The notes: generated by a model not told the origin, from the sequence alone. 64,000 bases of DNA from a virus (IMGVR_UViG_3300012983_000033:1-64000); one strand, 5' to 3'; shown: positions 2,793 to 47,333, numbered from the stretch's first letter. Translations and numbers: made by a program.

Positions 2793-3458
2793 ATGATTAT
2801 ATCTAATCTTAAAGTATATGACTTAGAAGAATCGCTTCTCGCAAGCGGTTATGCTATGAGAACAGAACTCGATGAAATAGTGGTTACAGACAAAACTTTA
2901 AAGCGTGCTAAGAGTCTTACAAAAGCTTCAAACGGCAACGGCGCGCACGGTTAGTTTTTGACTGGTATCAGAGTAAACTTTGATTTAACTTTTAGCCTAA
3001 AAGCTTGGGTTGAAGCAGAGCGCTATCGTTTCTTAGAGTTCGTAACAAGTCAATCAACAATGCATCGTATTACAAAGTTTGATATTAAAAAACAATGTAA
3101 TGAATATGTTGATGATCGTGTTATTGCAGTTGTAGAAGAAAAGGTTAAAATCTATAATGAAATTTTAGATGCCATAAAAACAGAAGCATACAAAGAACAC
3201 GGATATACATTGGAAGGTATGCAAGAACTCGCAAAAGATGCTTATCTAAGAGTATTATATAACGTACCTTCAGGCTTCCAACTTACTGCAAGGATGGCAA
3301 CAAACTATCGTTGTTTATTAAATATCTATATTCAAAGACACGTTCACAGACTTCCTGAATGGAGAAAATTCTGTGAACTTCTACTTGAACTTCCTTACTT
3401 TAAGGAACTTGTAGATGCTTATTATTCAAAAGAAATAGAGTTAAAGGAGGAAAACTAA
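2793..3458 (+). CDS. thyX: ThyX-like flavin-dependent thymidylate synthase (one in-frame TAG)
   Basis: ATG 2793 with RBS; TAG at 2952 gives GAHG(Q)FLTG; RYRF..SQSTMHR and HRLPEW motifs. Confidence 0.8.
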
Positions 3459-3459
3459 C

Positions 3460-4404
3460 ATGGGACAAAAGGATAATATCATCAATATGCAAAATCATTT
3501 CGATGAAAAAGCAAAAATGATGGAAGACCGCAACAAACAAGTTATCGGTAATCGTTTTACTGAAATTATGAATATGATTGATTCAACAGGTAGCGAAGAA
3601 GGTATTGCACCTATCGCGGCAATTCTCTCTATGCCTGATAAAGATCTTACAATGTTCTCTGAAATTTTCTTAGGAGAATTAGAGAGAGCAATGAGAAATA
3701 GTAATGAAGCTCTTCTTATGGCACAGGCGCTTAATATGTCTGGCGGCAATATTGATGACCTCAATTCTGCTTTTCAGGAACTTCTTGTTGAAATTGAAAA
3801 ATCAGACGAGCTTTCAGATACTAAAAAGGATTTCTTAAAACGCTTCTTTATGATTATCATTAATGCTATTGCTGAAACAGAAGGCGTTTCAAAGAAAATT
3901 ATTGAAATTCCAATCGAGCTTATGGAGGGCGCAAAAGTCCCAGTTTATGCTCGTCTTGGAGATGCGGGACTTGATATTTATTCAACAGAAGATATTGAAG
4001 TTCTTCCCGGCGAAACAAAACTTGTTCATACAGGTATTAAAGTTGCTATCCCTCGTGGTTACGAACTTCAAGTTAGACCAAAGAGCGGTATTAGTTTAAA
4101 AACAAAACTTCGTGTTGCTAATACACCAGGTACTATTGATAGCGGTTACCGTGATGAAGTTTGTGTAATTATCGAAAATGTTGATCCTCCAATCAAAGAT
4201 ATTACTTATGACTTTGATGACAAAGGTCATCCAGTAATTACCTCAATCCTTCATGGTTCACCTTATACAATTGAAGCAGGTCAGAAAATTGCACAGTTCG
4301 TTCTTAATGAAGTTGTTGTTGCTAACTTCAATGAAGTTACTAATATTTCTGAAGTTGAGGGAGAAAACCGTGGCGGCGGATTTGGTAGCACGGGATTGAA
4401 ATAA
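3460..4404 (+). CDS. dut: Trimeric dUTPase with ~145-aa N-terminal extension
   Basis: DAGLD, RPKSG, GTIDSGYRDE, KIAQ and RGGGFGSTG motifs. Confidence 0.92.
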   Translation: MGQKDNIINMQNHFDEKAKMMEDRNKQVIGNRFTEIMNMIDSTGSEEGIAPIAAILSMPDKDLTMFSEIFLGELERAMRNSNEALLMAQALNMSGGNIDDLNSAFQELLVEIEKSDELSDTKKDFLKRFFMIIINAIAETEGVSKKIIEIPIELMEGAKVPVYARLGDAGLDIYSTEDIEVLPGETKLVHTGIKVAIPRGYELQVRPKSGISLKTKLRVANTPGTIDSGYRDEVCVIIENVDPPIKDITYDFDDKGHPVITSILHGSPYTIEAGQKIAQFVLNEVVVANFNEVTNISEVEGENRGGGFGSTGLK

Positions 4405-5144
4405 TGGCTAAAATTAAAATTGAAGACATTCGTTAGAGTGTTGAAGAACTCGGTTGGAAAGTTATTAGTGGAAAATATGATAACTTAGAGACCGAAATGG
4501 AATTTGAATGTAATGAGGGGCATAGAATATATGCCCCTTGGAAAAAACTTCGCAATAAAATAGAATGTCCTATTTGTAAGGCGAATGTATATAAAAGTAC
4601 AGAAACTAAGGTTGTTCCTAAAAGGAAAGGATAGAAAAGAATCCTCGCTTTAGACCAAGCAACTAAAGTAACTGGCTATGCAATATATGATGGAGAGGAT
4701 CTCGTAAAGTACGGCACATTCTCCACATACAAAGATAATCAAGAAGATAAATTTTCAGAAGTGCGCGGCTGGTTAATAAATATGATAAATGTTTGGCAAC
4801 CAGAGTTCATTGGTTTTGAGGGAATTCAATTACAGGATAATGTTGCTGGTGGTCAAAAAATGGGTGTTACAACATTTGAGGCTCTCGCGCGACTTCAAGG
4901 CGTAATTATGATTACTTGTAAGGAAATGAATATTCCTTTTGAAATTTATCCTACAAATACTTGGCGCCAAGCTTGCGGCGTAAAAGGACGCGCGCGAGCA
5001 GAGAAAAAACGCTCTATGAGAGAACTTGCAAAAAAATGGTTTGATATAACTGTTACTGAAGACGAGGCGGACGCGATAGGTATTGGAAAGCATACTGCGA
5101 GCCAGTTTAGCAAGGCGCATACTATTTTTAATTGGGAAACATAA
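4404..5144 (+). CDS. RuvC-like Holliday junction resolvase with N-terminal Zn ribbon (two in-frame TAG)
   Basis: ATG overlaps the dut stop; read-through of TAG 4434 and 4632 gives CNEGH..CPIC then ILALDQATKVTGYA, FEGI and DEADAIGI. Confidence 0.85.
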
Positions 5145-5147
5145 AAA

Positions 5148-5171
5148 GAGAAGGTAAGTAATCTTACCTTC
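5148..5171. terminator. Hairpin between convergent genes
   Basis: AGAAGGTAAG-TAAT-CTTACCTTCT. Confidence 0.6.
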
Positions 5172-6086: not shown

Positions 6087-6099
6087 TTAGATTACCTCC

Positions 6100-6492
6100 T
6101 TAAGCGCCGGCTTCTTCTGTAATAGGCAAAGATGCCGCGTTGTTTACACAACGAGAGCAAGGCAATCTACCCAACAGTTTAAATACGCCGTCTTGAATAT
6201 TTGTGTTGACCATTACCGAATACCGAGTACGCGCATTAATTGAACAAGCCAAAACATTCGTACAATCGCAGTTAAGTAAAGGATACTCAGTTGTACCATC
6301 ACCGATTGTGATGACTACATTAGCTGCAACAGTTGTAGCTGCAGGTATTGTCTAAGCAACAACAATACAATACTTTTCACAATCATTATAATTTCCTTCT
6401 GGGATGTTGATTGTGAGTGTGTCGTCTGCAAAAGTGACTGCTTCTGATATAACCAGTCTTTTACAAAGTCTCTTATAATTAGGACAACTCAT
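6100..6492 (-). CDS. Cys-rich beta-strand protein, 130 aa (TAG at 6352)
   Basis: MSCPNYKRLC...CIVVA(Q)TIPAATT...NCDC...PCSRC; ends at TAA 6100. Confidence 0.8.
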
Positions 6493-6572
6493 AATTTCAC
6501 TCCTTAAAAATTTGGAGGAAGATGCGGGTATATCTTCCTCCAATAATCACGCATTAGCGGAAAGTTTTTTAA

Positions 6573-7364
6573 TTATGCACAGCCACAGCCGCAACCGTTG
6601 TTAAATCCGTTGTAGCCTAAACCAAAAGCTGCTGCATAAGGACTGCAAGTAAGGTAAGCAGGTTTTGCTACAGGCATAAGCTGATTTACGATGTTGCTTG
6701 TCTGAGAGAGCTGAGATAACTGGAATTGCGCAGACTGAAGTTCTGTGCGAAGTTTATCCATCTCTGTTTGAGTGAGATAGTTGATGATTCTGTCTGTGTT
6801 CTTGTCGTTGGCTACGAGGATATCATTTGCGGCCTGAGAAACAGCATATTTGATATTCTCTTGGCCACGGCCAAGATCGCAGCAGCAAGAAGCCATCTGG
6901 TTAGCAAGACTATTGAAGCCTGCTTGGTTAGTAAAGTTTGACTAAAGAATTGACTTATCAACGCCGCAGAAGCCCTGGGCCATTTCAAAGCCTACGTTAG
7001 CAATAGATTGCTGTGTCTGGCAGCAGCAATTCTGAAGAGCAGCCTGAAGAGAAGCGATGTTTGCAGAAGTTGTATAGAAACCATCGCAAATTCCATTCTG
7101 AATTCCTCTGAGACCATTGTCTAACTGATTAAAGTTAAAGGCATCAGTCATGCCTTGCATTGTAGCGGGTGTGCAACAAGCATTAGCGTAATAATTTGCG
7201 CCGTCGCCATTACCACCGAAACCATTACGATTCCAGCCACCTGCAAAAAGTAGGATAAGTAGAACAATCCACCATCCATTGTCTCCGCCCCAACCATTGT
7301 TGTTGTCTGAACCTGTGTTTCTAAGGGCAAGAGCGTCAGCTACAGAAATTCCTTCGTTCATCAT
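6573..7364 (-). CDS. Gly/Asn-rich, single-TM, coiled-coil, Cys-rich protein, 263 aa (TAG at 6942)
   Basis: Two track ORFs fuse in frame: KSIL(Q)SNFTNQAGFNSLANQMASCCC; WWIVLLILLF hydrophobic segment; GCGCGCA C-terminus. Confidence 0.85.
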
Positions 7365-7406
7365 TGTGTTTCCTCCTTTTTGGAAAAATTTTTTATCTCA
7401 AAACGC

Positions 7407-7649
7407 TTACATATTTTGAATTGTAGAAAAGAGATTGTTCATCTCAGTATTAAAATCTCTACCCTATTGTCCAAAATATTGTTTAGCGAATTGTTCAAGA
7501 CCTTGAACATCACCATTCTAACCCATTCGTAAAAGATTCATCATCATTGGGTTATCTGCATAGTTAGTTTGTATAATCTGTTCGGCGACCGCACGAGGGT
7601 TGCCGTTTTTTATTTGTTGTAATAATTGTATTGGATTTATACCTGCCAT
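7407..7649 (-). CDS. Gln/Asn/Met-rich helical protein, 80 aa (two TAG)
   Basis: MAGINPIQLLQQIKNGNP...RMG(Q)NGD...FGQ(Q)GRDF...; absent from the code-11 track. Confidence 0.75.
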
Positions 7650-8059
7650 TCTATCTTACCTCCAAGTTTTTCTTTTATTTTTAAGACAGCATCTTCGATA
7701 CGATTAAGACGCTCATCATATTCTTTAAACATGCCGGCGGGCACCTCTTCAGTAGGAGAGGAAGTAACAGTACCCTCTATTGGGCTTAAACGGTATCCTA
7801 ATAACATCGGCGCACCGTTTTGAAAAGATTTTATATACATCAGATTTTCAGACAAACATAAACCTACCGAAACATTCGCGCCCGCCGGCACATTATTTAT
7901 ATCGGAAGCTGTGTTTAAGCTGAATAAGTTACCTACTGGTTGTAAAAAAATACTTGGTTGTATTTGATTAAATTGCGGCATAGTTGGCGCCGCGGCTTGT
8001 GGCTAAGATTGCTGTGTTTGCTGTGGATTAAAAGGGTAGTTTGGATAATTGTTTGTCAT
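7637..8059 (-). CDS. Hypothetical protein with Pro/Gln-rich N-terminus (one TAG)
   Basis: GGAGG RBS and ATG 8059 in frame with track ORF 7637-7981. Confidence 0.78.
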
Positions 8060-8687: not shown

Positions 8688-10874
8688 TTATTCATCAGCT
8701 GGCGGCTCGCCCAATTCAAAACCAGATAGGTAAATTTTTCCATTTTTAAAATGGATTTTTGCTACTATATTATTTCCACTTTTATCAACTTCAGGAGAAT
8801 ATAAGGCGATACATTTTTTAATATCAAGACAATTTATTTGTATGAATTCATCATCTGGAAGTAATTGACCTGCTGTACCGTTTATAATCATTCCATTTTT
8901 TCTATGTCCAATTGTAGGACGCCCAAAACTTGCTGTTGTAATGTTAAGTCTTAATGTACATATTACTTCACCATTTCGTGAACAAAATATTTCAATATTA
9001 TATTCTGTTTCACTTGTAAATTTAAAATCATCTGTTACTGGATAAAAAACTTCGTCTTTTTTTAAAACATTAGAAAGATATTCATATGTTTTATTTCCTA
9101 ATTTAAAGGTTATTTTACTATTTTCTGCATAAGTCAAATCTGTTAAAATTTCATTATTTAATACAAGCTCATTATAGTTATCTAAATTACCAAGTTTGTT
9201 AAAAGTAAAAGCTGGTAAAGAATTTTTTCCCAATGCCTCTATTGCTATATTACTCATTGCAATTGTTGGATTAATAGAATAACGTAATTTTATTTTTTCA
9301 CCAATTGTTCTCAATTCTTTTAAATCCTAATTATTATAATAAGGATAGACTGAAATTTCAATTTCACTTATTCCATATTCTGAATTTTCAACTTTTATAT
9401 CATCTAATGAAATAATAATTTTTTTAGAAGATTCGGTAACAGTTTTCCATTCCTATTCATTAATACGATACTCATATTTTAATTGAATATTATCATCTTG
9501 TTCATCGTATGCATTTGATAGTTCAATATAACAAGAGTCTTTTTTATCTTCTATTTGTAATAAAGTAGGAAGCCCGCTAAATTCAATTAAGTTTTCAGCC
9601 TCATTGCGCAACTCAATTTTTTTATATGAACTTCCATCCCACTTAGGGGAGGCTTTTGTTTTTACTGCTTTATCAATTTTTAATGATTCTTTAGTAGAAA
9701 TTACTACATTGCCAAAGCTATCATATGCAAATAATTCTACTTTATCAAAACAAGCATATCCCTCTCCATCGCCCCATATCTAATCCTAAAACATTCTTGT
9801 TAAGGCTCGTTTTAAAGTATATTCCTAATTATCCATAATAACAGGAGTTTTTTCTTCTATTCTATAATGAAAATAAGAACTGTCTCCATAAATAATATTC
9901 AAAGAATCTATATGAGGTATATCTATAATAAGTTTTCGTTCACCTTTTGTTAAAAATATTTTTAACTATAAATTATAAGCATAATTTATTACATTACCAA
10001 TATATTCTTTAGAGGTTTCGTCTAAAATGAAAGAAAGTACAGTTTTATATTTATCATTTGGAAGGTCAAAGAGAGGTAGATTAGAATTTATTAATTGATA
10101 ATCTAATTCCACAAAACTTTCTGATAATAATGATACTTTTTCATAGGTTACAGTAAGATGAGAAAGAAGAATTGAAAAATTTTTATTCTATTCATTTGCA
10201 CAAAATATTTTAAAAGTATGTAAGTCAGAAGTAAAGTCTTTAGTATTTAATGAAACCTTTATAACCTCTGTTGTATTATCCAAAACTTCAATATCTTTAT
10301 CATCTATTTTTACTCCATCAGCGATTATAATAACGCCACTAATTTCTATTCCCGATGTTAAAACAGGTTTTATTATTTCTAATTTTAATTCTTCGTTAAA
10401 ACAATTATTAGTTAAATTCAATGCCCTTACTGCACGCGGAGCCGCATCCACATAGTCTATTACTTTATAACCAATTTCATGGTCTAATTTACCTATCATA
10501 TCATTATTTCTATTATATAACTAAAGTCTGCAATATTTAACAAAATCTCCCGGTTTTAAATCACTAATATCTGTTTGTTTAAATGCTGTTTTAACCTCAA
10601 AGGTTCCGGTTGTTCCTAAACCAGTAGTATCTAACTCGCAATCTTTATCAATACTAACTACTTTTTCACCATTATTATTATCTATTATTAGATATATTTC
10701 TGCTCTATCTAAAAAGTTAAATACACTAGGTCTTGTCCAATTTCCTGTAATTGTTATTGTTTCACTAGTTTTATTTTGTGTCCAATATTTTACTGTATTC
10801 CCTTGTGAATCAGTATAGCTATGATAACCAAAACCAATTACAGAATTGATATTAAAATTCCAATTACTAGCCAT
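8688..10874 (-). CDS. Tail-associated or receptor-binding protein, 728 aa (multiple TAG)
   Basis: Track ORFs 10521-10874, 10188-10499 and 8688-9314 are in one frame; junction stops are TAG; follows the tail-tip gene. Confidence 0.7.
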
Positions 10875-10904: not shown

Positions 10905-13900
10905 TTATGCTATATAAATATCATAACCGCCACTTACGGCTTCATATTTTATAGAACTTTGTGTTTTTTCTGATTTTAATTTTAGGTCTGTCTCTATTAT
11001 TGTATCATTCTCATTTGTTTTAAATTTTGGTGTGTAGTTTCCTTCTGCATTCTTTATGTTTATATAAAAATAATCTTTATCACTACTAATCTTATATTTA
11101 TAATCTGACTCACCATTAAACTCAATACCCTAATCATCTATATATATTTTATCAGACCAATTTATAGATGTTGCTAATATAGAATTTTTGAACATGGATA
11201 ATACTGCTATTTCCATTTTTTCAGAATTCAGTGAGAATAAATTATCTGTGCTTTCGGCTAACGCAAAGCGTATAGCATTACCGCCACCATAAATAGATAA
11301 TCCATATTCATCTGTTCCTGTACCAGTAATTTTAGCAGTTTTTAATTCTGAGGCCTGTATGACAGATTCAGAAATAATAGTACCTTTAAAATAACCAGAG
11401 TTAGCAAAAAGATTACCATATTCATCAACTGCAAAATTATAAGTATATTTTGTATTTGTACCATCTTGTACATGAGTTCCGCCATAGAAAACAACTTTTC
11501 CAGATGTTATTTTCCATTCATCATTTATTGTACTATCAATTATGTTTGCTAATTCAACAGTATTTAATGTATCTATACCAGCAAAGCTAGATGTACCCTT
11601 AACTTCTAAAGCACCATTTAAATAAACATTATCTGCATAAAGTCCATAATTATTATTAGGTCGATCTTTAAAAATTGAAGCAATATGATTAGAAATACTA
11701 TCTGCATCATTTTCTGAAGGAATTTTACCTAAGAAAATTCTATTTTTTATATTCCACGAAAAACCTTCGGAAATTGTGCCGCTTGACCAAGTTTCAAAAA
11801 TACTTATACCATTTGAAGGAAAAATAATATTCTCATTAGAACTGTTAAAAACAATTCCAATATCTTTATTAGCAGAAGTATTTCTTCCAATATCTATAAT
11901 AGTTGAATTATTAAAATCTAAATCTAAAGTCTAATATTCACTTTCTCTCAACTAAACAAATATAACAGTTTTAGAATTAACAATCTATGAATTTATAGTT
12001 AAATAAAGATATTTATTCTAATTAGTGGCTTCAAGAAGAGAATTATTTTTATTTTTAGGAATAATTTTTATAATATTTCCATTTGTGTGTCCCATTTGAG
12101 AGTTTAATGTTAAAACTAAAAACTTATCTTCTGATAATAAAGCTGGTGTATTATTTGCTTGATTTATATATTTATTAGAAAACTCTGTCCAAGTTAAAAA
12201 TTCGTAACTTTCAACGATAGCCGTAGGTCTAACCAAGAAAGTGCCACCAATTGTTTGAATTTCTTGATACTCAAAAGTCGCCGCCTTAATTGAACCAGAA
12301 ACAACAACATTATTAAAACGAGCTTCTGTTGGAGTAATTCTCCATCCATTAGTAGAATTTAAAATATTAAATGATTTTGTTTGTATTCCACCATTTGCTA
12401 TTTCAAGATCACCAATTGTACCAGTAGTAGCGTTTATATGTCCCTCGATCCAAGCGTTCTTTGCATAAAGATTACCATTATCAAATATTGCAAAAGTTTC
12501 ATTTTGTTCGATTAATTGTGAAATCTAATTATCAGCAAACTATTCAAAACCAATATTGCCATTAGCTTTTACAGAAAACACCTTAGTTAAATAATCAACC
12601 GAACTATAGGTTTTTTGCGGTGTCTCGACTTTTACATAATTCTCTCCACGCTTATAAACATCAACAATACCAAGTGTAACCCTATCTTTTGGATAGATAA
12701 ATGAATTATTCCATTCTATATCACTTATCTAAATTGAAGTAATAATATCAAAATCCATATTATAATAAGTTTTTGTTTTAACACCATTAACTTCTTCATA
12801 CTTATAATAATATTCATTTGGTAACTCATTTTCATTAACAGTAATAACTTCTCCAGTATTCTTAACGTAAGTATAAACGCTCTAGTCAATACCATCACTA
12901 AAGTTAGAAATTCTTAATTTCTACTTTAAATAAAGTTCGCCATCATCATTAGTATCCATAACAACTTGTCCCAAAGCATTCTATAAGCGGAAGCCATAGT
13001 ATTCTTCTCCCTCATCATTTTCCATTTTACCAATGATAACTCTATCAACCCAATCTCTACGTTCTTCTGAATATTCAGACATTTTAAAATCTTGAGAAGT
13101 ACCAATAGTAACTCGGCCAGTACCATCTCCAGTATTTAAGAAGAAACCGTCCCAAGTAAGTCCAAACATTGCATTTGGATTATTAGTGATTTCAGAAAGT
13201 CGTTTTGGAGCAAAAGTATCTTTATAATTAAATTCGTTTACTTCTTCTCCTTTAATACCATAAAAACCAAACTAATCCATTCGTACAAAAGTGGAATGAT
13301 CGATCTTGCCTTCATTTGTTTTATAAGCTGAAATACCAACTTTATCCCAGAAGAAATTAGGACTATTATTAGCACCAATTAGGACATTATCAACATTAAG
13401 TTTACCAACTGAAAGAATGTCAGCGCTAAAACCATCGCCTGTAAGAGCAGTTTTATAAGTGCTGCCACCGTCTTTACTAATCAAAATTCCTCGACTTACA
13501 ATTTTAACCACATTTGCGCGGTCGCTCTCACTTACAACTGTAATTCCGTCGTGTCCCCAAGTAACTTTTTCATTATTTGAGTGAAGAAGGATTGATTCGC
13601 TACTCTCAATACTCTCTTTAAGAAACTCCTCTTTAATTGTACCATCATCATTTATTAATGAAGCAGCGCGTCCATACGAACCTTCATTAAATTGAAGAGT
13701 CTAAGATGTTGCAGCAATACGCTGGAATAAATCATCAAATTGAGTTGAATAGTTTTTAACTTTTGTTTGATTTTGAGAAGGATCGTTTAAGTTATAAATC
13801 TTCTCAGATACTACAACCATTTCCCAATAAGGAGTAATACCATCATCCTTATAACCAAAAAATTCAGTATCTTCAACATATGTTCTGTCGCCAAGTTCAC

Positions 13901-33277: not shown

Positions 33278-33344
33278 ATATCCTTTTTCGCCTCCTAAAT
33301 AAAAAATCGACATTAATTACTTAAAATTAATGTCGATTCAAAAC

Positions 33345-34130: not shown

Positions 34131-34195
34131 TTCCTTTTACCTCCAAAATAAAGAAAAGGTGGATAGACCAGCCATCCACCTTTTTTATTTAATTA

Positions 34196-37071: not shown

Positions 37072-37082
37072 GGCCGCACACC

Positions 37083-37340
37083 TCACTTTAAAAGGTTCAT
37101 ACAATCAAAAATTGTTGTGCGGAAGTATTCGTATTTTAAATAACGAAGACTTGATAATTTATAATATAGAATATAATAGTTAATTGTTTTTTCTTCATCA
37201 GAATATCCTAAAAGTTCAATTAGAATGGAATCAAGAAACTTCTCCCATTCACGCCCCTTTTCAAACTCACAAAGAAGTCCAAACATTTTGCTTTTTAACT
37301 TATTGTTATATGCTTCTTGCATTGCAGGTACTTTTTCCAT
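37083..37340 (-). CDS. Hypothetical neck-module protein
   Basis: Start overlaps the upstream stop; located in the head-tail block. Confidence 0.6.
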   Translation of the reverse strand: MEKVPAMQEAYNNKLKSKMFGLLCEFEKGREWEKFLDSILIELLGYSDEEKTINYYILYYKLSSLRYLKYEYFRTTIFDCMNLLK

Positions 37341-37768
37341 TACTAATCACCTGCCAGTTTTCCATAATTAAAGGGCTTATTATCAATAGAACGATAATAA
37401 ATAGATTCAATTCGCTTTGCCTCTCTTTTCTCGAATTCAAGCGAATCATAAAGCTTATCGAGCATATTAGCCATTGAGAAATCTCTTTCCTCATAAAGAG
37501 GTTTAATATTTTCCCAAGTTAAAATTGAGCGATTAAGCCATTCGCATTTCATATATCGTGCAAGAATTTGAATTTCAGTATTATTCAACTCTCCTACAAA
37601 GTTATCACCATCAATTGTTAAATCAACTCTTGGAAAACGGAACTGCGGCATCGCTGTAGCAAGAATTGCGCGCAAATCCTATTCAACTTCATAGTCAGTC
37701 CATAATTGCCATTCATCTTCAAGCATTGTCGCAAGAAATGCGTCAAATACTTTCTGAAGCGGAGTCAT
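37340..37768 (-). CDS. Putative head-tail adaptor (TAG at 37679; ends TAG-TAA)
   Basis: GGAGG RBS and ATG 37768 in frame with track ORF 37343-37675. Confidence 0.62.
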
Positions 37769-38325: not shown

Positions 38326-39426
38326 TTATTCTTCAATACCGAGTTCTTCGTTAGCGAAAACGCCTTGGAAGTGACCCTGAGTATTTGTGATTTTGCGGTT
38401 TCTATAGATACCCCAGTTATGAGTTGAGAGGATAGCTGCACCAAGTTTTTTGTAAACATGCATTTCCATAGAACCATCTGTATTTGTCCAGTCACGAACT
38501 TGTGTTTTACCTTCAAATACGATTTTAACAACTTTCTCACCATTTGTTGGAAGAACGAAAGCGTACTGAGGATTAAGCCAAGTTTTTTCGTGTGTATCGT
38601 CTGTATAAGACTGACGAAGCTGAACAATTGGTGTACCGCGGAACATTGTGATGAAACCTGTGTTGCGGATATCATCAATGTCCTGTGGATGGTAGATACC
38701 TGCATAAGCAGCTGTACCAGGAACAACAGCAACTGAAGTTTCCATTTCAGCAACGAATTCAGGTGTAGCGAAGATTACTGCGCCATTACCATATGATTTA
38801 ACGATTGTGATAAGACTCTGCATTGATTTAGCTTCGAATTCTGTAGCATCAATGAAAGTTTTTGAACGATTTACTGTACCTGTACCAGCAGCGATACCAC
38901 TGTTGAAAGATGAAATAAGTGCTTTCTGAACTTCGTAGTAAACAGCGTCAAGCATTGCTTCATTTACAATGTCCATATATTCAGCGATTGTTTCAGCACC
39001 ATCGAGCATTCTTTCGAAGTCGATGCGAACTGCACCACCGATTGCGTGTGCACTTACTGTGAATTCTTCAGCATCAAGACGGAATGTTTCGTAGAGACCT
39101 GAAAGACCAACTTGTGTAACAAATTTCTTTGCACGGTTTCTACCAAGTTTTCTCTTAAATACTGCTTTCTGACCCTGACCTACTGTCTGGATTTCAGCAA
39201 ACATGCCAAGTTCAGCAATTGTTTTAGCAGGAACAACTTCGTCGATTGTTGTAATCATAAGATCATAAAGATCATAACGGTTTTTCATAAATGTGATGTA
39301 GTCTGAGCAAACCTTACCAAGTTCTTCTCTGAAAGCATCGTTTACATTTTCAGAAGAGAAATTTGTAGGAGCTGTACCCTTTGCTGAATGAAGAGCAAGA
39401 GCTTTTAAATTTTTAAAATCAGCCAT
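38326..39426 (-). CDS. Major capsid protein
   Basis: 366 aa; follows protease and decoration genes; strong codon bias; no TAG; GFITMFRGTPIV HK97-like segment. Confidence 0.82.
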   Translation of the reverse strand: MADFKNLKALALHSAKGTAPTNFSSENVNDAFREELGKVCSDYITFMKNRYDLYDLMITTIDEVVPAKTIAELGMFAEIQTVGQGQKAVFKRKLGRNRAKKFVTQVGLSGLYETFRLDAEEFTVSAHAIGGAVRIDFERMLDGAETIAEYMDIVNEAMLDAVYYEVQKALISSFNSGIAAGTGTVNRSKTFIDATEFEAKSMQSLITIVKSYGNGAVIFATPEFVAEMETSVAVVPGTAAYAGIYHPQDIDDIRNTGFITMFRGTPIVQLRQSYTDDTHEKTWLNPQYAFVLPTNGEKVVKIVFEGKTQVRDWTNTDGSMEMHVYKKLGAAILSTHNWGIYRNRKITNTQGHFQGVFANEELGIEE

Positions 39427-39445
39427 TTCTATTTACCTCCTCTGA

Positions 39446-40015
39446 TTAACCTCTGATAGCTTCGAGCTTAACGCCGAACTGACCATCAGGCATAGTATAA
39501 ACTTCAATTACACGAAGAACTGGACCGAACTCAGGAATAGTTGCTGTGAGTTTTTCATAGCCAAGTTCGCAAGCACCAGCGTAAACAGGTTTTGTAGCGA
39601 AATTTTCGAGAGCTTCCATAAGTGCTTCTTCTGTTGCGAATTCTTCTGTATCATAGCATACACAGTTTGTTGTGTATTTGTCACCTGCTGAAAGGTAACC
39701 AAGACGAGGATAGAAATCATTTACGCTGTTAAGTCTGAATGTCTTAAGAGCATATTCTCTCTCATCATACATATGTTCTGTGCTGTAGTTAAGAGCATAA
39801 ATGTCGCCTTCGGCTGGTTCTGCCTTATCTACGCAACGATTTGCGCCGTCAACTTTGAGGAGCATACCGTTTTCTAAATATCTGTCGTCTCCTGTAGCAC
39901 CTGTGAAAGTAGTACCAGCTTTATGCTGAGCAACTACTCTACCTGTACGAGGGAAGGCAACGAGATTTAACTCTAACTGGCCATAGCCATCTTTAGTGAT
40001 TTTCTGTAGAGCCAT
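39446..40015 (-). CDS. Putative capsid decoration or minor head protein
   Basis: LENGMLL motif; lies between protease and major capsid genes. Confidence 0.62.
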   Translation of the reverse strand: MALQKITKDGYGQLELNLVAFPRTGRVVAQHKAGTTFTGATGDDRYLENGMLLKVDGANRCVDKAEPAEGDIYALNYSTEHMYDEREYALKTFRLNSVNDFYPRLGYLSAGDKYTTNCVCYDTEEFATEEALMEALENFATKPVYAGACELGYEKLTATIPEFGPVLRVIEVYTMPDGQFGVKLEAIRG

Positions 40016-40036
40016 AATCAAAAACCTCCAATAAAA

Positions 40037-41431
40037 TTAATTTTTCTTGTATTTGCTCAGAAGAGCTTCTAAACTACCTTCTTCATACTCATCTGACTTA
40101 GGAATAAAGCCATTATGTGGTTCCTGAGCAGAGAAGATGGAAGGATCGTGAGCAACCAATTCAAGAGCAAGCTCTTTCTCTAAGTCGCTAATTGTGAACT
40201 CACCAAGTCTTGCGCGATATTCTTCGATTTTTTCTTCATCGAGACGAAGAGCATACTTATCAACGATAGCTGTTTTCTCCTTTTTTTCAACGCCTGATTT
40301 AAATGTATTGAGTTCTTCAACTGTTGCGTTGAGTCCTTCAATTGTACCGTTAAGTTCTTCAATCTGTGCTTGAGCTTCTGAAGCTTGAGTTGAGAAAGTA
40401 TCTCTTTCTGTAGTTAAAGTAGAGATTGTTTCTTCATTCTCTGCAAGTTTCTGCTCAAAACCAGAAATTTGTTCATCAGCTTTTAAGCCCTTTTCTACAG
40501 TATCCTGCATATTTTCATAAGTACCACCGTTAAGAGCCTGAACAGCCATAAGAGTGTTGTACTCTGTTTCTGTTACATCAACGATAAAAGCATCAACTAC
40601 ATCTCCAAGAGAAACTGTATCATCTTCATTCTTTGTGTAGTAAGCTCTTGAATATTTGTTTGTTTCATAGTTCCAAACAAGTGCATATTCATCGTAGATT
40701 TCGCAGATAGAGCAATCGATAGTCCAATTTCCTTCTTCGTTGAAATTAGGGTTTAAAGCACTAAAAAGTAAGTTGTGCTTCTGTCCATCTGACAACTTAA
40801 AATTAAGTGTAGGCATATCTTCTTGTCCTCCTTCATTAACTTGATAATTTTCTATTTTTTTGATTGCTTCCATTAAAGAATCATATAGTTCAAAGAAGGC
40901 AGCACCCTCAAAGCACGGCTCTACGGTGTCTCCAAGTACTTGGAGTCCCATAAAACATCCTTCTTCAAAAACAAAATATTTTGTACCATTGCGCATTTCA
41001 AAGTAACCTTTGATTGATGGCGGATAAAGTTCCATTGATTGAGATTTACCAATAATTTCAGTGGCTTCTTCATAGATAGCTGTGAATAAGAAAACATTAC
41101 AACAAGCATATTCTCTTAAAACACCATCTTCATCTAAATGAAATTCCCAAGCAAAATCCATTTTTGCTTCATCTGGAACAATACCATAAATGCGCCCGTC
41201 CGTTGGTTTGTCGTGTTTTCCGTAATCTTCTCCATCATATATGCCCTTAACAGGAGTATATGGAAGAGTTGCAATAAGTTTTTCTGCAAACTCCTCTGTT
41301 ATGAACGAAGCGTTACGATTTTCATATTTATAAAAGATACGACAACGACCCATAGAAAGTACATCATTATACTTTTTCAAATCGCCATAAATAACGACTG
41401 AAAACTTTGATAAAAATTCATTACCATCCAT
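40037..41431 (-). CDS. Prohead protease-scaffold fusion
   Basis: KH..GRIYG, QSMEL and GLQVLG..VEPCFEGA N-domain plus an acidic coiled-coil C-terminus. Confidence 0.78.
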   Translation of the reverse strand: MDGNEFLSKFSVVIYGDLKKYNDVLSMGRCRIFYKYENRNASFITEEFAEKLIATLPYTPVKGIYDGEDYGKHDKPTDGRIYGIVPDEAKMDFAWEFHLDEDGVLREYACCNVFLFTAIYEEATEIIGKSQSMELYPPSIKGYFEMRNGTKYFVFEEGCFMGLQVLGDTVEPCFEGAAFFELYDSLMEAIKKIENYQVNEGGQEDMPTLNFKLSDGQKHNLLFSALNPNFNEEGNWTIDCSICEIYDEYALVWNYETNKYSRAYYTKNEDDTVSLGDVVDAFIVDVTETEYNTLMAVQALNGGTYENMQDTVEKGLKADEQISGFEQKLAENEETISTLTTERDTFSTQASEAQAQIEELNGTIEGLNATVEELNTFKSGVEKKEKTAIVDKYALRLDEEKIEEYRARLGEFTISDLEKELALELVAHDPSIFSAQEPHNGFIPKSDEYEEGSLEALLSKYKKN

Positions 41432-42930
41432 TATGCTATTGACCCTCCTTTATCTAAAGATTCTTCCTTAGCTAAAGTAGTTTCTGCCTTTTCACTTTGC
41501 TCTTTTGCGGTACGGCCGCCGCCTTGTGCGGTTGGATCTTCGGCACCTTGGGTAAATGCTGACTAAAGAGGAATTAATAATTCAGAAAGTTCAAGAACAT
41601 CATTCTCTAATTCCTTAATATTAACTATATCTCTTTGTGATAAATCCATAGCTATCGCAGGAAGTATAAAACTAAATCCAGCATTAGCAAGTTTAAGAGC
41701 ATTGTCTGTATACTTAAAAGCATTATGATGTGTAATAGGAAGAATTGTATATTTAAAATTTACTTTTTTATTAGAAAAAAGCATATTTATGATTTCCGTA
41801 ACGAAAATCGAATATTTATAAATCAGGTTTTGCATAAAAGTCATATCGTTTGTGATAGAAGTATCTACAGCAGAACTGCTGTTCGCTTTAAATATCTAAT
41901 CACTAACACCTGTTTTATAATAAACATTACTTGCCATTTTTTCAATGGTATTTGTGGTAGCTTCAGATTTTGTGTTAGATGATACAACATCAACGTCCGC
42001 ATAAGTTGTAAGAACGCTAACGTTCTTATTGTGCTTCATCATCCCTGAAGTACCCTTATGAATTTCCTCTGCTTCAGGTGGTTCAAATAAAAGTTCACCA
42101 GTTGAAGTTAAATGAGGAATTTTCTGCACAATAATCTTTTTAATCTCTTCTGCTTCACGATCTAACTCATTAGCAATAGCCATATCATAATAAATCGTAG
42201 CAGGGATTATATCTAAAAACGCTGGTCTTCCATCTAAGAAAGAGAAATAAACACTAATGTTTGATGGCACAAAGAACCAAGACTTTCCACCTTTCTCAAA
42301 TTCTTTATAAGCTTTCGCAAAACACTTTGGAAAACTTTTGAGAACCGATTTACGCTCGTCTTCAGATATGGAGTTAAAATAAGTTAAATCAAATTCTATA
42401 ATGTCTTTTCCATTCAAATCTTTGTAGCGAGAAGCACAATATTTTGAGGGTAATTCAATTAAATGGAATTCCTTTGTATTTGCTTCTCCAACTACACCAA
42501 AGTAAGCACCATTAACTAAAGCTTGAACACTCATTTCACCAAAAAGTTTGGCTAAATTCATATTCTCAACATAGTCAATACCTTGCTTATATCTTTTCTT
42601 TACAGAGGAATCTGATAAAGAAGAGCCGAAAGTTGTGTTTGGAATAAGAAGACCTGCATACTTATATAAATAAGCATAGTGCATAATAATCTTCTTATAG
42701 AACCCATCTCTTGCAAAAAAGGTTCTTGACAAAATTCTCTTTTCCTCAAGGCTACCATCATTCACGATATGTTCGATTTCAGACATAGTATAATTCTTCA
42801 ATCGTTCAACTCCGTGGCGAGTGCTATCCTTTAAAAGATTTCCTAATGTAATAGACACCATATTTGAATAACTTTTTTGAAAATCCGCAAGAGAAAAATT
42901 GTGTAACTTTCTTTGTTGTGTAGTTTCCAA
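41431..42930 (-). CDS. Portal protein, 499 aa (TAG at 41896 and 41563)
   Basis: In-frame fusion; lies between terminase and protease; C-terminal GGGRP motif. Confidence 0.82.
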
Positions 42931-44736
42931 TTAAAACCCTCCCGAGAAAAAAGTTAATCGTCTGGTGGCGCCATTTGCGAAACGACGAGCTTTCTTTGTA
43001 TTGGCTTCTTCAAGTTCTTTAATTCGCCATAATCCATAAGAGAAAGCAGAATACTTATCCTTAGGGAAGCGCGCATTAATTTGCTCAAGAGTAATATCTG
43101 AAGAAGAGGTTGTTTTCTTCAAACGAAGATTAGCCATTTCCTCAAAAAGTTTTGTTGTCATTTCGTGTGGCATTAAGCGTTTTATTCTTTGCTCTGATGA
43201 CATTCTTTGACCTTTCTTTGTAGAAAGAAGCATAGTTTTAGCTTCCTATTCTTTTACTAAGAATCTAACCAATCCACTGTTGAGTCGAGAGAATGCGTTA
43301 CCATGAATTTTAGAGTTGAGAGCAGAGTTAGCTTTAATTCCATAAAGAATACGAATACTATCTTTTGGCTATACTTTTTTATAAACATCATCATTGGTAA
43401 AACCATACGCGGGAAGAATTTCTCCGTTTTCATCAGTATGTACGCGAATCATTTCATCTGCAAGTCCAACACCAAGACCGTTAGTATCTATAACAACTTC
43501 TCTTGGATTGAACGAGCGGATAATTTTCTTTAACTCAATTGCTTGTTGCAAGAAAGTTTTATGAGCCGAGTCTCTACCGAGCACGTATAAATTAACCAAA
43601 GTGCAATAATATTTGCCACTGAGAACGTTGATACGGAACACGCAGCAAACAGTTTGGTCATGTATTCGTCCAACGTCTACTGATAATAAGTAGAATTGTT
43701 CAGAACCTGCTCTACTAATTGCGTGCGTTTCTGGATTTTTAATTTTTCGATGCTTTTGCATCTTATCAAAATTAAACCAAGCCTCATCGCTCGCGCCAGA
43801 CCATAAACTCATATACTCGCGCGCAAAAGAGTCTTCATTAAACGATGGAGACATTTTTAGTTTATTGATGAAGTTTTTATCAAGAAGTCCATGTAAGATT
43901 GGAACTCGATAGTCACAACCAAAACAAAATGAGTTTTTAGGATCGATAATTGAGTTTTCAAAAACGTCAATTAATTTCTCATATGCAAACGAAGTCTTAA
44001 CGCCCGCAGATGTCATACATATTTGTTGTTGGTTTGGTTCTTTTTCATTAACTGTATTATCTGGGAGACGACGTGAAACGTTCATCAGAGGAAGCACAAC
44101 TTCGTTCAGTGGTTTTTCTTCGTGGTCACGAATCTCGTCTATTAGTCCACCGTGTCTACGTCCACCACGTTGTGAGTCGAGCGCACCAACAACGTCAAAT
44201 ATACTACCATTTCTAAATTTAAGGGTAACATAGTCTTTACCAAAATTACCCGGCATATCCATAATATCTCCACCAAGCACTTCTTTTCTAAGAAGAGGCC
44301 AGTGATTATAAATTTCCGCAATCTTTTCTTTTGCGATTTGAGCTGACTGGTTTTTATTCGGGGCGCAAATAAAGCGCTTGGTGCCCGGCATAAATACACA
44401 CTGGAGCATCATCGCAAGAATTGTTAAGAATGATTTTGAGAACGCACGGGGCGCAGTACCATAAACTTCGCGGTAGCGCATAATCGCACGTAAAGTAATT
44501 CTCTGATAAAAGAATAACGAAAAGTCATCATCTGACGGCTTAATTAAATCCAAAAAGATGTCAGGATAGGCAGAGAAAATTGAGAACATCTCGCATAAAT
44601 GATCGTAATTCTTAATAAGATAATCTTCTGTAAGAGCAACACCTTTCTCAATTTCTGTGCCGTCGCGCATACCTACAAGTATATTGTTCGTAATATCTGT
44701 AATAATGGATAAATCAATGAGCTTTTTCTTAGCCAT
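42931..44736 (-). CDS. terL: Terminase large subunit, 601 aa (TAG at 43369 and 43246)
   Basis: Walker A APRAFSKS, Walker B GLIDE, nuclease motifs SVDVG and KDKYSA. Confidence 0.92.
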
Positions 44737-45724
44737 TATTATCACCGTCCAAGTCAAGCTCAAACTCTTCACCCATCATTAACTTTTCAAAACCTTCGTG
44801 TTCATATAAATCAATATTTTCATCATAATCAATTCCAACACCATAAATATTTTCAGTGGCGTCAACGTGTTTTAAAGCTTCAATACGTCTTGTGATTTCA
44901 TCACCAATACCACTTTCATTTGTATATAAGCGCTGAACAAAATTCTAATAATTTTTAAGTGTCTCATCAACGACATCTCTTGTGACGTTATCATAGAATT
45001 TGTTATGCCAACCTCTTTTTTCGCACCATTTAATAACTTCACCGAAGCTATCAAAGTCATTAATATTCTTAACATTCTTTGGAGTAAACTCTGCTATCTT
45101 AACGAGTTTATCATACGAAGTCAAAAGCTTATCGTAATCAGAACCTTCTCGAATTCTACTATCAATCTCAAGCGAGATCTTACATATCTTCAAAGCTTGG
45201 TCAGTCTGAAGCGCGCCATTAATATTCTGGGTAGTAGTAAGACCGTTAAAAAGATTCTCAAGATATATCATATCTTCATTATCATATCCCGGTCCCCATT
45301 TCTATACCATCTTACGCTTTCTGTCTTCATCAAGCAAAGGAAGTTCTGCTTCAATCATATCACTATCTTCAAGAGCTTTAAACTCTTTATAATAGTCCGC
45401 CCATCCAAGACCTTCAAAATCTTCACTTAAGAAAACACGCGCATATGCTGGAAAAGCACCCTGCGCATTCATTTCTTTTATTCTTGTCCATTCTTTTGGC
45501 ACAAAAGGAATATCGGCATACTAACAAAGTTTATCGACCGCATCCCACTCATTATCATAATTATCAATAAATTCCTAAATACAGTCATTACACCACGGCA
45601 AATATCCGTTATAAAAAGGAGAGGTAGTGGGACTAAAGTTTTCCTCTCCAAACCGGCCGCCGCACTTTGTACATTGCTTTGTGACAAAGGTTTGATTAGT
45701 TTTTATTTTTGGCTAAAGTCCCAT
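44729..45724 (-). CDS. Zn-finger protein upstream of terL, possible small terminase, 331 aa (several TAG)
   Basis: CTKC...WCNDC N-terminus; fragments 45302-45502 and 44945-45271 are in frame; overlaps the terL start. Confidence 0.6.
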
Positions 45725-45728
45725 TTAA

Positions 45729-45971
45729 TCACTTCCCTTTAACAGTTTTCTTCATAACATCAAGTATATCTACTCTAACTGCTGGTTTAAGTTGAATAAA
45801 TTTGTCATACATCTCTGAGAAAACTTCTTCAAAATCTCTGGTTTTTTCAATATCATTATCTTCCGTAAAAGGAACACAAAGCATTTGAGCAATACCAATA
45901 AACTCAATTAATGTCATTTTAGATAAATATTTAACAAAGCGTTTTATTTCTTTATGTGTAGCTTGTTCCAT
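45729..45971 (-). CDS. Hypothetical protein
   Basis: AGGAGG RBS, 80 aa. Confidence 0.7.
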   Translation of the reverse strand: MEQATHKEIKRFVKYLSKMTLIEFIGIAQMLCVPFTEDNDIEKTRDFEEVFSEMYDKFIQLKPAVRVDILDVMKKTVKGK

Positions 45972-45986
45972 TTTAAAAATCCTCCT

Positions 45987-47333
45987 TTAAGATTTCTTGC
46001 GCTCACGGTCTGCTTTATCACAACATTTGCAACGATTAGTAAAACCGTCTTTTGCGCGACTTTTTCTAACAAAATTATAAGGGTCTCTTAAGAGGAGACG
46101 GCGGCAAGTATTACATTCCTTAAACTCCTCTGGGAAAAATAAATTCTCACAAACTCTTAAATGATATTTCGCTGCTTCAACTATAGCGGGAATAATTTTC
46201 TGGCGGAATATAGTTGAAATATAATTAACAGTATATGATTTGCCATACTTAGAGTTTATGGCGGCCGCAATCTACTAATTTTGATTACCCTTAATCTTAA
46301 AGTCAAGAATTTCTCTTTGGACTTCATTAAGTTCGGCAATCTCAACATAATACCATAGTGTGCTAAGGAAATTAGCAGTAGATCTATTTAGCGTTTCACG
46401 GTCGGCCGCATCTTCTAAGTCAGAAATCTATAAGAAAGCATTATAGATATGCTCTACCTCAAAAAAGTCAAAATAGTTAGATTCTGGGCGTTCTCTATGC
46501 GACCAAATTAGTCTAGAGAGTTGTTCAAGCTCTTTCTCGGAAAAATTCTTTGGTACAACCTCTGTAAGGGGCTTAAATAGTTTTTCTGAAACGAACCCCG
46601 GGGTTTTTATGCCTAAGGGAAAAACGGGAATATCTGCATCGAGAACTGGCTCAAAGTCTTTTGGATTTTGAGGGAAGCGACCTTGGCTGGAGTCGCGCAT
46701 TAGTAGGTTAGAGTATGAATCTTTGAATTGATATTGCTGTTGGCGCAATTCTACGAGAAGATGGCGCAATTTGAGATAGTGGTATTGTGATAGTTTTTCG
46801 GCTTTTGCTTTTAGAAGAAATTGATCTTCTTCTGTAAAACGTTGGAGAAGTTCTTCTCGTGGAGGATTTTTACGTTTATTGTGCGCGAGGTCATAAAAAT
46901 TGATGATGAGGTCGGTTTCGTCGATTTGACGGAAGAGAGCTTCGAGTTCGGGTAGAAGTGAAACGTCGATTTGCGCGCGGGCCTCATCTCGAGAGAAAAC
47001 GGTACGGGGAATTTTTGTACGAACTTCGCCCGGCCGCATAATTGTGTTTTCATCGAAGGTAGGGGATTCAATTAGTGCGTCGAGAGATTCGACATTTTCA
47101 GAGTTTGACCATAGTTTCGATTTAGTATCTATCTCAAACTCTTTTCGTTGTACGGCGTTTTTGCCGTCGTCTCTATTTTTACCCCATAGTATATAGTTTG
47201 ATATAGTTTCTAATTCTTCTTTAGAGGGAGGGGTAGTAACGAATTGTTGTTGTGTTAGGTAGTTATTGACGAAGTCTGCGCGCTCGTCAATAAATTCGAG
47301 GGAAAAATCAAGTTTTAGTCTATTATAAGCCAT
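45987..47333 (-). CDS. Putative DNA-binding protein with HTH-like segment and C-terminal Zn ribbon, 448 aa
   Basis: Read-through of TAG 46428 and tandem TAG-TAG at 46272-46277 gives N(QQ)IAAAINSKYGKSYTVNYISTI and CNTC...RCKCC. Confidence 0.68.

What the first reader, a model, noticed from the sequence alone, without database searches (positions are those of the whole stretch)
2793..47333. Genome-wide TAG-to-Gln stop codon reassignment (code 15)
Seen: all ~30 fragment-ending stops checked in tape measure, tail-tip, Dit, terminase, portal and neck genes are TAG, and the fragments are in one frame. True gene ends are TAA/TGA, often overlapping the next ATG. A tandem TAG-TAG is at 46272-46277. 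Gln fits the context (GAHG*FLTG, AFLS*IIETTRE, LVKE*EAK, QQS*PQ). Established: TAG=Gln recoding is known in gut phages such as Lak and some crAss-like phages. Here it occurs in an SPbeta-like siphovirus architecture.
Basis: partly seen in the sequence, partly recalled or inferred. Interest (0 to 1): 0.75.

Follow-up and report, generated by a model that had tools for sequence, protein, structure and literature searches.

The report
Phage reads TAG as glutamine
This is a complete 140-kb gut or rumen tailed phage that reads the stop codon TAG as glutamine in its virion, lysis and homing-nuclease genes, a known phage habit; the unusual part is its TAG-reading tRNA, which carries an extra hairpin showing the normal glutamine anticodon.

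Summary
Reading TAG through raises coding density in 2793-47333 from 0.68 to 0.98. It fuses fragments into a 3295-aa tape measure (57 TAG), a 3573-aa tail protein (23 TAG), and intact Dit, portal and TerL. Every gene ends in TAA or TGA.

At 83 TAG columns aligned to standard-code relatives, Gln fits best by 32 log-likelihood units. Both TerL TAG columns are Gln in 70 of 70 relatives.

The window is the first 64 kb of a complete 139,671-bp IMG/VR phage. Outside the window the phage encodes 30 tRNAs, including one tRNA-CUA. It encodes no release factor and no GlnRS/GluRS.

TAG use is uneven. It makes up 23% of Gln-type codons in the late module and is absent from the capsid, tube and replication genes.

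This is a new member of a known kind: code-15 phages (Borges et al.) and the similarly built phAss-1 group (PMC10607447).

The less ordinary part is the suppressor tRNA. It has a Gln-type body plus a long variable arm whose loop shows CUG. I found 45 of 49 similar amber tRNAs in IMG/VR showing CUG or UUG, and 5 of 5 long opal tRNAs showing CCA. This scan already reported both the recoding and the tRNA on this genome, and the decoy arm on about 20 others.

The parts
2784..3458 (+). 224-aa protein of unknown function (phrog_6721), 1 in-frame TAG at 2952-2954
4404..5144 (+). RuvC-like Holliday-junction resolvase, 2 in-frame TAG
6100..8059 (-). four small late genes (6100-6543, 6573-7364, 7407-7649, 7637-8059) with 1, 1, 2 and 1 TAG; 4 of the 5 TAG columns are Gln in the closest complete standard-code relative
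8688..10874 (-). 728-aa tail-region protein with no family match, 8 in-frame TAG
10905..21626 (-). 3573-aa tail-tip or fibre protein, 23 in-frame TAG and no TAA/TGA
21639..23279 (-). distal tail protein Dit (PF05709, phrog_202/33), 9 in-frame TAG
23426..33313 (-). tail tape measure protein, 3295 aa, 57 in-frame TAG
33345..35089 (-). two paralogous virion structural proteins (phrog_2729; tail-tube position), 0 TAG
35113..37104 (-). three neck or head-tail genes (35113-35862, 35855-36346, 36346-37104) with 3, 1 and 2 TAG; columns 36346-aa104, 37104-aa37 and aa211 are 85-100% Gln in relatives
37340..37768 (-). 142-aa gene with a TAG at codon 30 and a TAG as last codon directly before TAA; relatives have their stop at that last position, so it looks like an old stop with a back-up stop
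38326..41431 (-). major-capsid candidate (phrog_4088), 191-aa protein and a scaffold-like 464-aa protein, all with 0 TAG
41431..42930 (-). portal protein (phrog_2739), 2 in-frame TAG (aa 345 is Gln in 50 of 63 relatives; aa 456 is Ser in 55 of 60)
42931..44772 (-). terminase large subunit (phrog_2/9), 2 in-frame TAG; both columns are Gln in 70 of 70 standard-code relatives
44729..45724 (-). 331-aa conserved protein (phrog_3314), 5 in-frame TAG; 2 columns are at least 95% Gln
45987..47384 (-). 465-aa protein whose C-terminal part matches a phage sigma-factor family (phrog_5767); 3 TAG including the tandem TAG-TAG at 46272-46277
47479..64000 (.). early-gene block; every ORF of at least 100 aa on the coding (+) strand has the same ends under both codes, so none uses TAG either as a sense codon or as its stop

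Best explanation
The window is the late (virion) half and part of the early region of a complete 139.7-kb siphophage, probably of gut or rumen Bacillota, that uses genetic code 15.

Shown:
- TAG is an in-frame sense codon in 20 of the 31 late-module genes. Elsewhere in the genome it occurs in the endolysin and in GIY-YIG homing endonucleases.
- TAG stands where relatives have Gln.
- All genes stop at TAA or TGA.
- The phage encodes a single tRNA with anticodon CUA. Its D-arm is identical to that of the phage's own tRNA-Gln(UUG). Positions 1:72 are unpaired, and the discriminator is G73.

Inferred:
- A host enzyme charges this tRNA with Gln, because the phage encodes no GlnRS, GluRS or release factor.
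- Early and replication genes, which are TAG-free, are translated first. Late genes become translatable as the suppressor accumulates. This is the regulatory model of Borges et al.
- The most highly expressed virion genes avoid TAG because suppression competes with host RF1.
- The extra variable-arm hairpin of the tRNA shows a Gln anticodon (CUG). It most likely restores recognition by the Gln-charging enzyme, which the G36-to-A change in the real anticodon weakens.
For: - Coding density rises from 0.678 to 0.982 with TAG read through.
- Giant in-frame ORFs appear, with family matches spanning the TAG codons.
- The late module has 126 TAG and 0 TAA in frame, although CAA outnumbers CAG.
- In 83 TAG columns Gln is best by 32 nats. 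TerL is 70 of 70 Gln at both sites.
- Codons opposite TAG in relatives are mainly CAA (293) and CAG (153).
- tRNA-CUA: ARAGORN call; Rfam tRNA model at 55 bits with a 17-nt insertion; the only CUA anticodon arm with a T-loop in the genome; D-arm identical to the phage tRNA-Gln.
- No RF-1-domain or class-Ic synthetase gene.
- TAG-free replication genes, and TAG-bearing endolysin and homing endonucleases.
- About 70 of 80 TerL relatives use the standard code. They end 12% of homologous genes with TAG, their rarest stop.
- Decoy arm: 45 of 49 distinct long U1/A1 CUA tRNAs carry YUGA in the variable region. The same motif occurs in Ser 1 of 23, Leu 1 of 26 and Tyr 1 of 8. The closing pair of the arm covaries G-C with U-A. 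All 5 long UCA tRNAs show U-CCA-A.
- A Faecalibacillus MAG that holds a related contig has a GlnRS-type gene.
Against: - There is no protein-level evidence; the amino acid is inferred from alignments only.
- About half of the TAG columns are not Gln in relatives. Portal aa 456 is Ser in 55 of 60. This matches the behaviour of ordinary Gln codons but leaves room for some misincorporation.
- The long variable arm and G73 are also features of tRNA-Ser.
- The host is not identified. MAG bins holding related contigs include an implausible Methanobrevibacter bin.
- Timing of suppressor expression was not examined.
- GlnRS is a monomer (from my own knowledge of GlnRS structure, not tested here). A 3-4-bp variable arm cannot obviously reach its anticodon-binding domain, so how a decoy loop would act is not established.
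Confidence: 0.94

Rival explanations
1. TAG is read as another amino acid. Candidates are Ser (the tRNA has a long variable arm and G73, both SerRS features), Tyr (a supF-like type II CUA tRNA), Glu (charged by GluRS without amidation) or pyrrolysine (ARAGORN's label).
For: The tRNA is 90 nt with a long variable arm and G73. One well-sampled TAG column is Ser in 55 of 60 relatives, and others are Glu, Gly, Asp or Phe. ARAGORN labels any CUA tRNA as Pyl.
Against: - Log-likelihood falls short of Gln by 39.7 nats for Ser, 49.8 for Glu, 41.1 for Lys (the Pyl proxy) and 106.7 for Tyr.
- The majority-Gln rate at TAG columns equals that of true Gln codons.
- The D-arm is identical to the phage tRNA-Gln and 1:72 is unpaired.
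- The variable-arm stem is only 3-4 bp and its loop shows a Gln anticodon.
- No synthetase gene of the GlnRS/GluRS class was found in the phage; a PylRS gene was not searched for specifically.
Confidence: 0.03
2. The in-frame TAGs are damage: a decaying phage, or sequencing or assembly errors, and not a code change.
For: Under code 11 the conserved genes look broken.
Against: - Only TAG interrupts frames: 126 TAG against 0 TAA in the late module, although CAA is 3.3 times commoner than CAG.
- All fragments stay in one frame.
- Ten related contigs from other samples show the same TAG-only pattern, with 8 to 45 TAG each.
- The genome is complete, with terminal repeats.
- A matching suppressor tRNA is encoded.
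Confidence: 0.01
3. The recoding is real but has no regulatory role. After a suppressor tRNA was acquired, TAG drifted into tolerant, weakly expressed or fast-evolving genes. The early/late contrast then reflects expression level and constraint, not a timing switch.
For: - TAG is densest in the fastest-evolving proteins: tape measure 57, tail protein 23, homing endonucleases 4-6.
- It is absent from the most abundant virion proteins, although those are late genes too.
- Recoded and standard-code lineages are interleaved in the TerL tree, so the trait flips often.
Against: Essential late genes (TerL, portal, Dit) carry TAG at invariant Gln sites, so the late programme depends absolutely on the suppressor. 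Replication genes are fully TAG-free, as the timing model of Borges et al. predicts.
Confidence: 0.35

Closest known systems
Code-15 (TAG to Gln) recoded gut phages: crAss-like, Lak and the gemstone clades of Borges et al. (bioRxiv 10.1101/2021.08.26.457843); proteomic proof in crAss-like phages (PMC9523058)
   Same: TAG aligns with Gln. A phage-encoded tRNA-CUA is present. Recoding is concentrated in structural and lysis genes. Close standard-code relatives exist. The genome is low in GC (about 34%). TAG is the rarest stop in the standard-code relatives. No phage synthetase is found. The size (140 kb) and gut/rumen Firmicutes setting fit their large Firmicutes-infecting clades, such as Agate at 154 +/- 27 kb.
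   Different: Membership of a named clade could not be tested because their sequences are not held here. This phage has no RF2. Homing endonucleases inside the replication module also carry TAG.
phAss-1 / proposed Phassvirus group (PMC10607447; OQ749652)
   Same: A siphophage of about 136 kb with a tape measure of about 3150 aa, 28-36 tRNAs, TAG=Gln in TerL, portal, tape measure and fibre genes, no synthetase, and a predicted Clostridia-type host. Recoding is patchy among relatives. phAss-1 also has a long (88-nt) CUA tRNA with a CUCUGAA loop in its extra arm, next to a 72-nt one.
   Different: TerL is only 34% identical, so this is a different genus-level or higher lineage. This phage has one suppressor tRNA, not two or three. 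The paper does not mention the variable arm.
Classical amber suppressor supE (E. coli tRNA-Gln with anticodon CUA), from my own knowledge
   Same: A tRNA-Gln body with the G36-to-A anticodon change inserts Gln at UAG using the host enzyme.
   Different: supE is a 75-nt class I tRNA. This one has a 16-17-nt insertion that forms a variable-arm hairpin showing CUG.
Engineered 'pseudo-anticodon' variable arms (Mukai 2020, PMC7590224)
   Same: A hairpin in the variable-arm position that copies a cognate anticodon loop and is used to recruit a synthetase to an amber suppressor tRNA.
   Different: That system is synthetic. It used an allo-tRNA chassis and HisRS fused to an extra anticodon-binding domain, and the effect was modest. 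Here the design is natural and conserved, and the enzyme is presumably unmodified host GlnRS (or TrpRS for the opal class).

Membership tests
Code-15 (TAG=Gln) recoded phage | In-frame TAG, and only TAG, interrupts conserved genes; read-through restores full-length homologues | tested here: met
Code-15 (TAG=Gln) recoded phage | TAG columns align with Gln in standard-code homologues | tested here: met
   83 columns, Gln best by 32 nats; TerL 70 of 70
Code-15 (TAG=Gln) recoded phage | True gene ends use only TAA or TGA | tested here: met
   four genes have TAG as last codon directly followed by TAA or TGA
Code-15 (TAG=Gln) recoded phage | Phage-encoded suppressor tRNA with anticodon CUA (found in about 40% of such phages according to Borges et al.) | tested here: met
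   genome 95354-95443(-), outside the window
Code-15 (TAG=Gln) recoded phage | Recoding biased to late, structural and lysis genes | tested here: met
   8.6 against 3.4 TAG per 1000 codons; replication genes 0; endolysin 1
Code-15 (TAG=Gln) recoded phage | Gln found at TAG positions in the protein | not testable with these tools
   needs mass spectrometry
Phassvirus (phAss-1 genus) | High nucleotide identity (80-86% among members) and shared synteny | tested here: not met
   TerL 34% aa identity
Spbetavirus / SPbeta-like phages | Close similarity of hallmark proteins to SPbeta (for example YonF terminase) | tested here: not met
   TerL of the same broad family, but only about 30-36% identical to the YonF-annotated phage TerLs (Sundance, AM9) and 34% to B. 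subtilis phages; the best cultured hit is Geobacillus virus E3 at 44%
tRNA-Gln-derived amber suppressor | Gln-type body: weak or unpaired 1:72, and a D-arm like tRNA-Gln | tested here: met
   D-arm identical to the phage tRNA-Gln(UUG); U1.U72; G73. U1 in 13 of 15 family members
tRNA-Gln-derived amber suppressor | Class I tRNA with a 4-5-nt variable loop | tested here: not met
   16-17-nt insertion forms a variable-arm hairpin
Pyrrolysine tRNA (ARAGORN label) | Lys-like residues at TAG columns (Pyl is a lysine derivative; the tRNA-Pyl fold and a PylRS partner were not tested) | tested here: not met
   Lys falls 41 nats short of Gln at TAG columns; the tRNA has a long variable arm and a Gln-type D-arm

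The most novel reading that the evidence does not exclude
The suppressor tRNA belongs to a widespread natural class of 'two-headed' phage suppressor tRNAs that I could not find published. The real anticodon reads the stop codon. A conserved extra hairpin in the variable-arm position shows the sense anticodon of the amino acid being assigned: CUG or UUG for TAG=Gln, and CCA for TGA=Trp. That hairpin would act as a decoy identity element, so that the unmodified host GlnRS or TrpRS still charges the tRNA. If so, this is how phages rewire the code without bringing their own synthetase.
Probability: 0.5. Interest if true: 0.85.

Novelty: new member of a known kind. Interest (0 to 1): 0.4.

Why it matters
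For annotation, this genome and about ten related IMG/VR contigs must be translated with table 15. Otherwise the tape measure, tail, Dit, portal and terminase genes appear as dozens of fragments.

For biology, the clade is a useful natural series. Recoded and standard-code lineages at 65-75% TerL identity are interleaved. Old TAG stops are caught with a back-up stop right behind them. This matches the proposed route to recoding: a rare stop, then capture of a suppressor, then spread of TAG into late genes.

The part with real reach is the suppressor tRNA. If its extra arm is a decoy anticodon, that would explain how such phages charge suppressors without their own synthetase. It would also be a natural template for engineering orthogonal tRNAs.

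Tried and rejected
- The window holds no tRNA and no Rfam family. The code-change machinery lies outside it.
- A search for relatives of Dit in IMG/VR found nothing. I fetched the tail regions of five complete standard-code relatives instead.
- BLASTN of the suppressor tRNA against five complete standard-code relatives gave only chance or partial tRNA matches. Against five recoded relatives it gave nothing, but those are 17-67% complete fragments, so this says nothing about absence.
- BLASTN against GenBank phages found only generic tRNA matches.
- No RF-1 domain and no GlnRS/GluRS domain in the genome.
- Readings of TAG as Ser, Tyr, Glu or Pyl were rejected on the column likelihoods.
- The ORF 57790-58242(-), with 4 'TAG', was dropped as a spurious antisense ORF. 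Relatives show TAA or TAT there.
- A family-level search for GlnRS around a candidate host failed on a tool rule. I replaced it with a search of four MAGs; only one had a match, and the MAGs are of unknown completeness.
- Literature searches found no description of natural pseudo-anticodon variable arms. The library is not exhaustive.


Full report
**What the window is.** The window is the first 64 kb of a single-contig, 139,671-bp IMG/VR virus record with direct terminal repeats, rated 100% complete. GC content is about 34%. The minus-strand block from about 5.1 to 47.4 kb is a siphophage morphogenesis operon. It holds, in order:
- a protein with a sigma-factor-like C-terminal part;
- phrog_3314, TerL, portal, a scaffold-like protein and a capsid candidate;
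- neck genes and two phrog_2729 structural proteins;
- a tape measure, Dit, a 3573-aa tail protein and smaller genes.

The plus-strand genes at 17-5144 are NrdD, a dUTPase-like protein and a RuvC-like resolvase. Positions 47.5-64 kb are small early genes.

The nearest cultured TerL is Geobacillus virus E3 at 44% identity. Next come Alicyclobacillus and Enterococcus phages at 39-44%, phAss-1 at 34%, and Bacillus, SPbeta-type and Lactococcus 949-type phages at 30-36%.

**Checking the observation.** Under code 11 the late region is a string of fragments. Reading TAG through fuses them in frame:
- 3295 aa with 57 TAG;
- 3573 aa with 23 TAG;
- 546 aa with 9 TAG;
- 728 aa with 8 TAG;
- TerL and portal with 2 TAG each.

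Coding density in 2793-47333 rises from 0.678 to 0.982. Reading TGA or TAA through instead gives 0.724 and 0.857. All late genes end in TAA (27) or TGA (4), and many junctions overlap or abut.

This is not decay. There are 126 in-frame TAG and no in-frame TAA in 14,654 late codons, although CAA is 3.3 times commoner than CAG.

**Which amino acid.** A TerL-based scan of IMG/VR returned 80 related loci at 59-75% identity (most 64-75%), with flanks. About 70 of them have 0-1 in-frame TAG over 1300-5700 aligned codons, so they use the standard code. Ten have 8-45 in-frame TAG.

Opposite this phage's TAG codons, relatives carry mainly CAA (293) and CAG (153). Using only standard-code relatives, 9 of 19 TAG columns are majority-Gln. 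That is the same rate as true Gln codons (71 of 153), against 0-3% for the six other residues I compared (S, L, Y, E, K, W). Both TerL sites are Gln in 70 of 70.

I then added the tail and replication regions of five complete standard-code relatives. This gave 83 TAG columns:
- Gln is best by 32 nats over Thr, Ala, Ser and Lys; Tyr falls 107 nats short.
- Homologues carry Gln at 23.5% of TAG columns.
- They carry Gln at 38.8% of true Gln columns and at 0.4-5.6% of columns for the eight other residues checked.

TAG therefore means Gln.

**The machinery.** The window has no tRNA. The genome has 30 tRNAs at 92.8-102.5 kb, including one with anticodon CUA at 95354-95443 on the minus strand. It is the only CUA anticodon arm followed by a T-loop in the genome. 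The Rfam tRNA model scores it at 55 bits with a 17-nt insertion in the variable region. Its D-arm is identical to that of the phage tRNA-Gln(UUG), positions 1:72 are unpaired, and the discriminator is G73.

The genome has no RF-1-domain protein and no GlnRS/GluRS-type synthetase, so host enzymes must charge the tRNA (inference).

Related contigs sit in goat-gut MAG bins, a Faecalibacillus MAG, and uncultured Clostridium and Bacillales MAGs. Binning of phage contigs is unreliable; one of the bins is Methanobrevibacter. The Faecalibacillus MAG encodes a GlnRS-type protein.

**Distribution of TAG.**
- TAG supplies 22.7% of Gln-type codons in the late module and at most 10.6% elsewhere.
- TAG is absent from the capsid candidate, the scaffold-like protein, the two phrog_2729 proteins, the early genes in the window, and GyrB, DnaB, RecJ and both PolIII-alpha parts.
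- TAG is present in the endolysin (1) and in two GIY-YIG homing endonucleases (6 and 4).
- Four genes have TAG as their last codon directly before TAA or TGA. For 37340-37768, relatives have their stop at exactly that position, so this looks like an old stop with a back-up.
- Standard-code relatives end 12% of homologous genes in TAG, their rarest stop.
- In a TerL tree (C-terminal 357 aa, FastTree, midpoint root, support values not examined), recoded lineages are interleaved with standard-code ones at four or five places.

All of this fits the model of Borges et al.: a rare stop, then capture of a suppressor, then TAG spreading into late genes with a possible timing role.

**Comparison with what is known.** Code 15 in phages is established and has proteomic support in crAss-like phages (abstract of PMC9523058). 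This phage is a distant relative at 34% TerL identity, not a member of that genus. Verdict: a new member of a known kind.

**The unusual part.** I tested this in five steps.
1. The hairpin in this phage is a G-C, C-G, C-G (plus U.G) stem with CUG at the centre of the loop.
2. A scan of IMG/VR that fixed only the CUA anticodon loop and the T-arm found 49 distinct long CUA tRNAs (at least 82 nt) that begin with U or A. Of these, 45 carry YUGA in the variable region, typically as a CUCUGAA or CUUUGAA loop, which is an anticodon-like loop with CUG or UUG. In long-armed tRNAs from the same loci the motif occurs in Ser 1 of 23, Leu 1 of 26 and Tyr 1 of 8.
3. On 15 diverse members the cloverleaf is 97% paired, with compensatory changes in every helix. 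The closing pair of the extra arm switches between G-C (8) and U-A (6).
4. phAss-1 carries such a tRNA next to a short one. The phAss-1 paper does not mention the variable arm.
5. The same kind of scan for opal suppressors found five distinct 93-95-nt UCA tRNAs. All five show U-CCA-A, the Trp anticodon, in the loop of their extra arm.

After these tests I found that this scan had already reported the Trp version many times: its index lists 23 notes in at least 21 genomes for my search words, and all eight it showed describe the Trp version.

I found no paper describing the natural design. An engineered counterpart exists (PMC7590224). The decoy-identity mechanism is inference only. From my own knowledge of GlnRS structure, it is unclear how a short variable arm could reach the anticodon-binding domain of a monomeric enzyme.

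Noticed in passing
genome 95354-95443 (-), outside the window (= L081:3355-3444:-): The only tRNA-CUA has a Gln-type body plus a 16-17-nt variable-arm hairpin with CUG at the centre of its loop. IMG/VR holds at least 49 distinct similar tRNAs, 45 of them with CUG or UUG there. phAss-1 (L119:12445-12532:-) has one too.
   Followed up: yes
L223, L227, L230, L264, L283 (IMG/VR contigs): Five distinct 93-95-nt opal suppressor tRNAs (UCA) all have an extra-arm loop reading U-CCA-A, the Trp anticodon. This parallels the Gln case.
   Followed up: partly
genome 101409-101485 (-), outside the window: A tRNA with an 8-nt anticodon loop (ARAGORN anticodon 'caat'). It could be an Ile/Met-type tRNA with one extra base or a frameshift-type tRNA. 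Similar four-base calls appear in L105, L106 and L111.
   Followed up: no
window 37340-37768 (-); also 60626-61090 (+); genome 64552-64959 (-) and 97868-98176 (-): TAG is the last codon and is directly followed by TAA or TGA. For 37340-37768, relatives stop at exactly the TAG position, so it looks like an old stop with a back-up stop.
   Followed up: partly
L001-L080 (TerL relatives): TAG recoding is patchy. About 10 of 80 relatives are recoded, and they fall in four or five places in a TerL tree, each beside standard-code lineages.
   Followed up: partly
window 10905-21626 (-) and 23426-33313 (-): A 3573-aa tail protein with no family match, and a 3295-aa tape measure. At the usual ~1.5 Å of tail per tape-measure residue (my own knowledge, not a tool result), that length implies a tail of roughly 0.5 micrometre.
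   Followed up: no
genome 114098-115150 (+) and 129350-130081 (+), outside the window: GIY-YIG homing endonucleases carry 6 and 4 TAG although they sit among replication genes that have none.
   Followed up: no
window 45987-47384 (-): The first gene of the late operon has a C-terminal part matching a phage sigma-factor family (phrog_5767) and itself contains three TAG. If it is a late regulator, its own synthesis would depend on the suppressor.
   Followed up: no
L141, L156, L169, L182, L210, L220; L161, L195, L199: Other phages carry further odd long tRNAs: 84-91-nt tRNA(CCA) with a type II-like body, long-armed tRNA-Arg(UCU), and 85-86-nt tRNAs that ARAGORN reads as UUA.
   Followed up: no
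L131 (JAFRFD010000017.1): A contig related to this phage sits in a Methanobrevibacter MAG bin, most likely through mis-binning. MAG-based host calls for this clade need care.
   Followed up: no
genome 84846-86982 (-), outside the window: A T4 Rnl1-type RNA ligase and a P-loop kinase (AAA_33) lie side by side, both TAG-free. They look like a tRNA-repair pair in a phage that depends on its own tRNAs.
   Followed up: no
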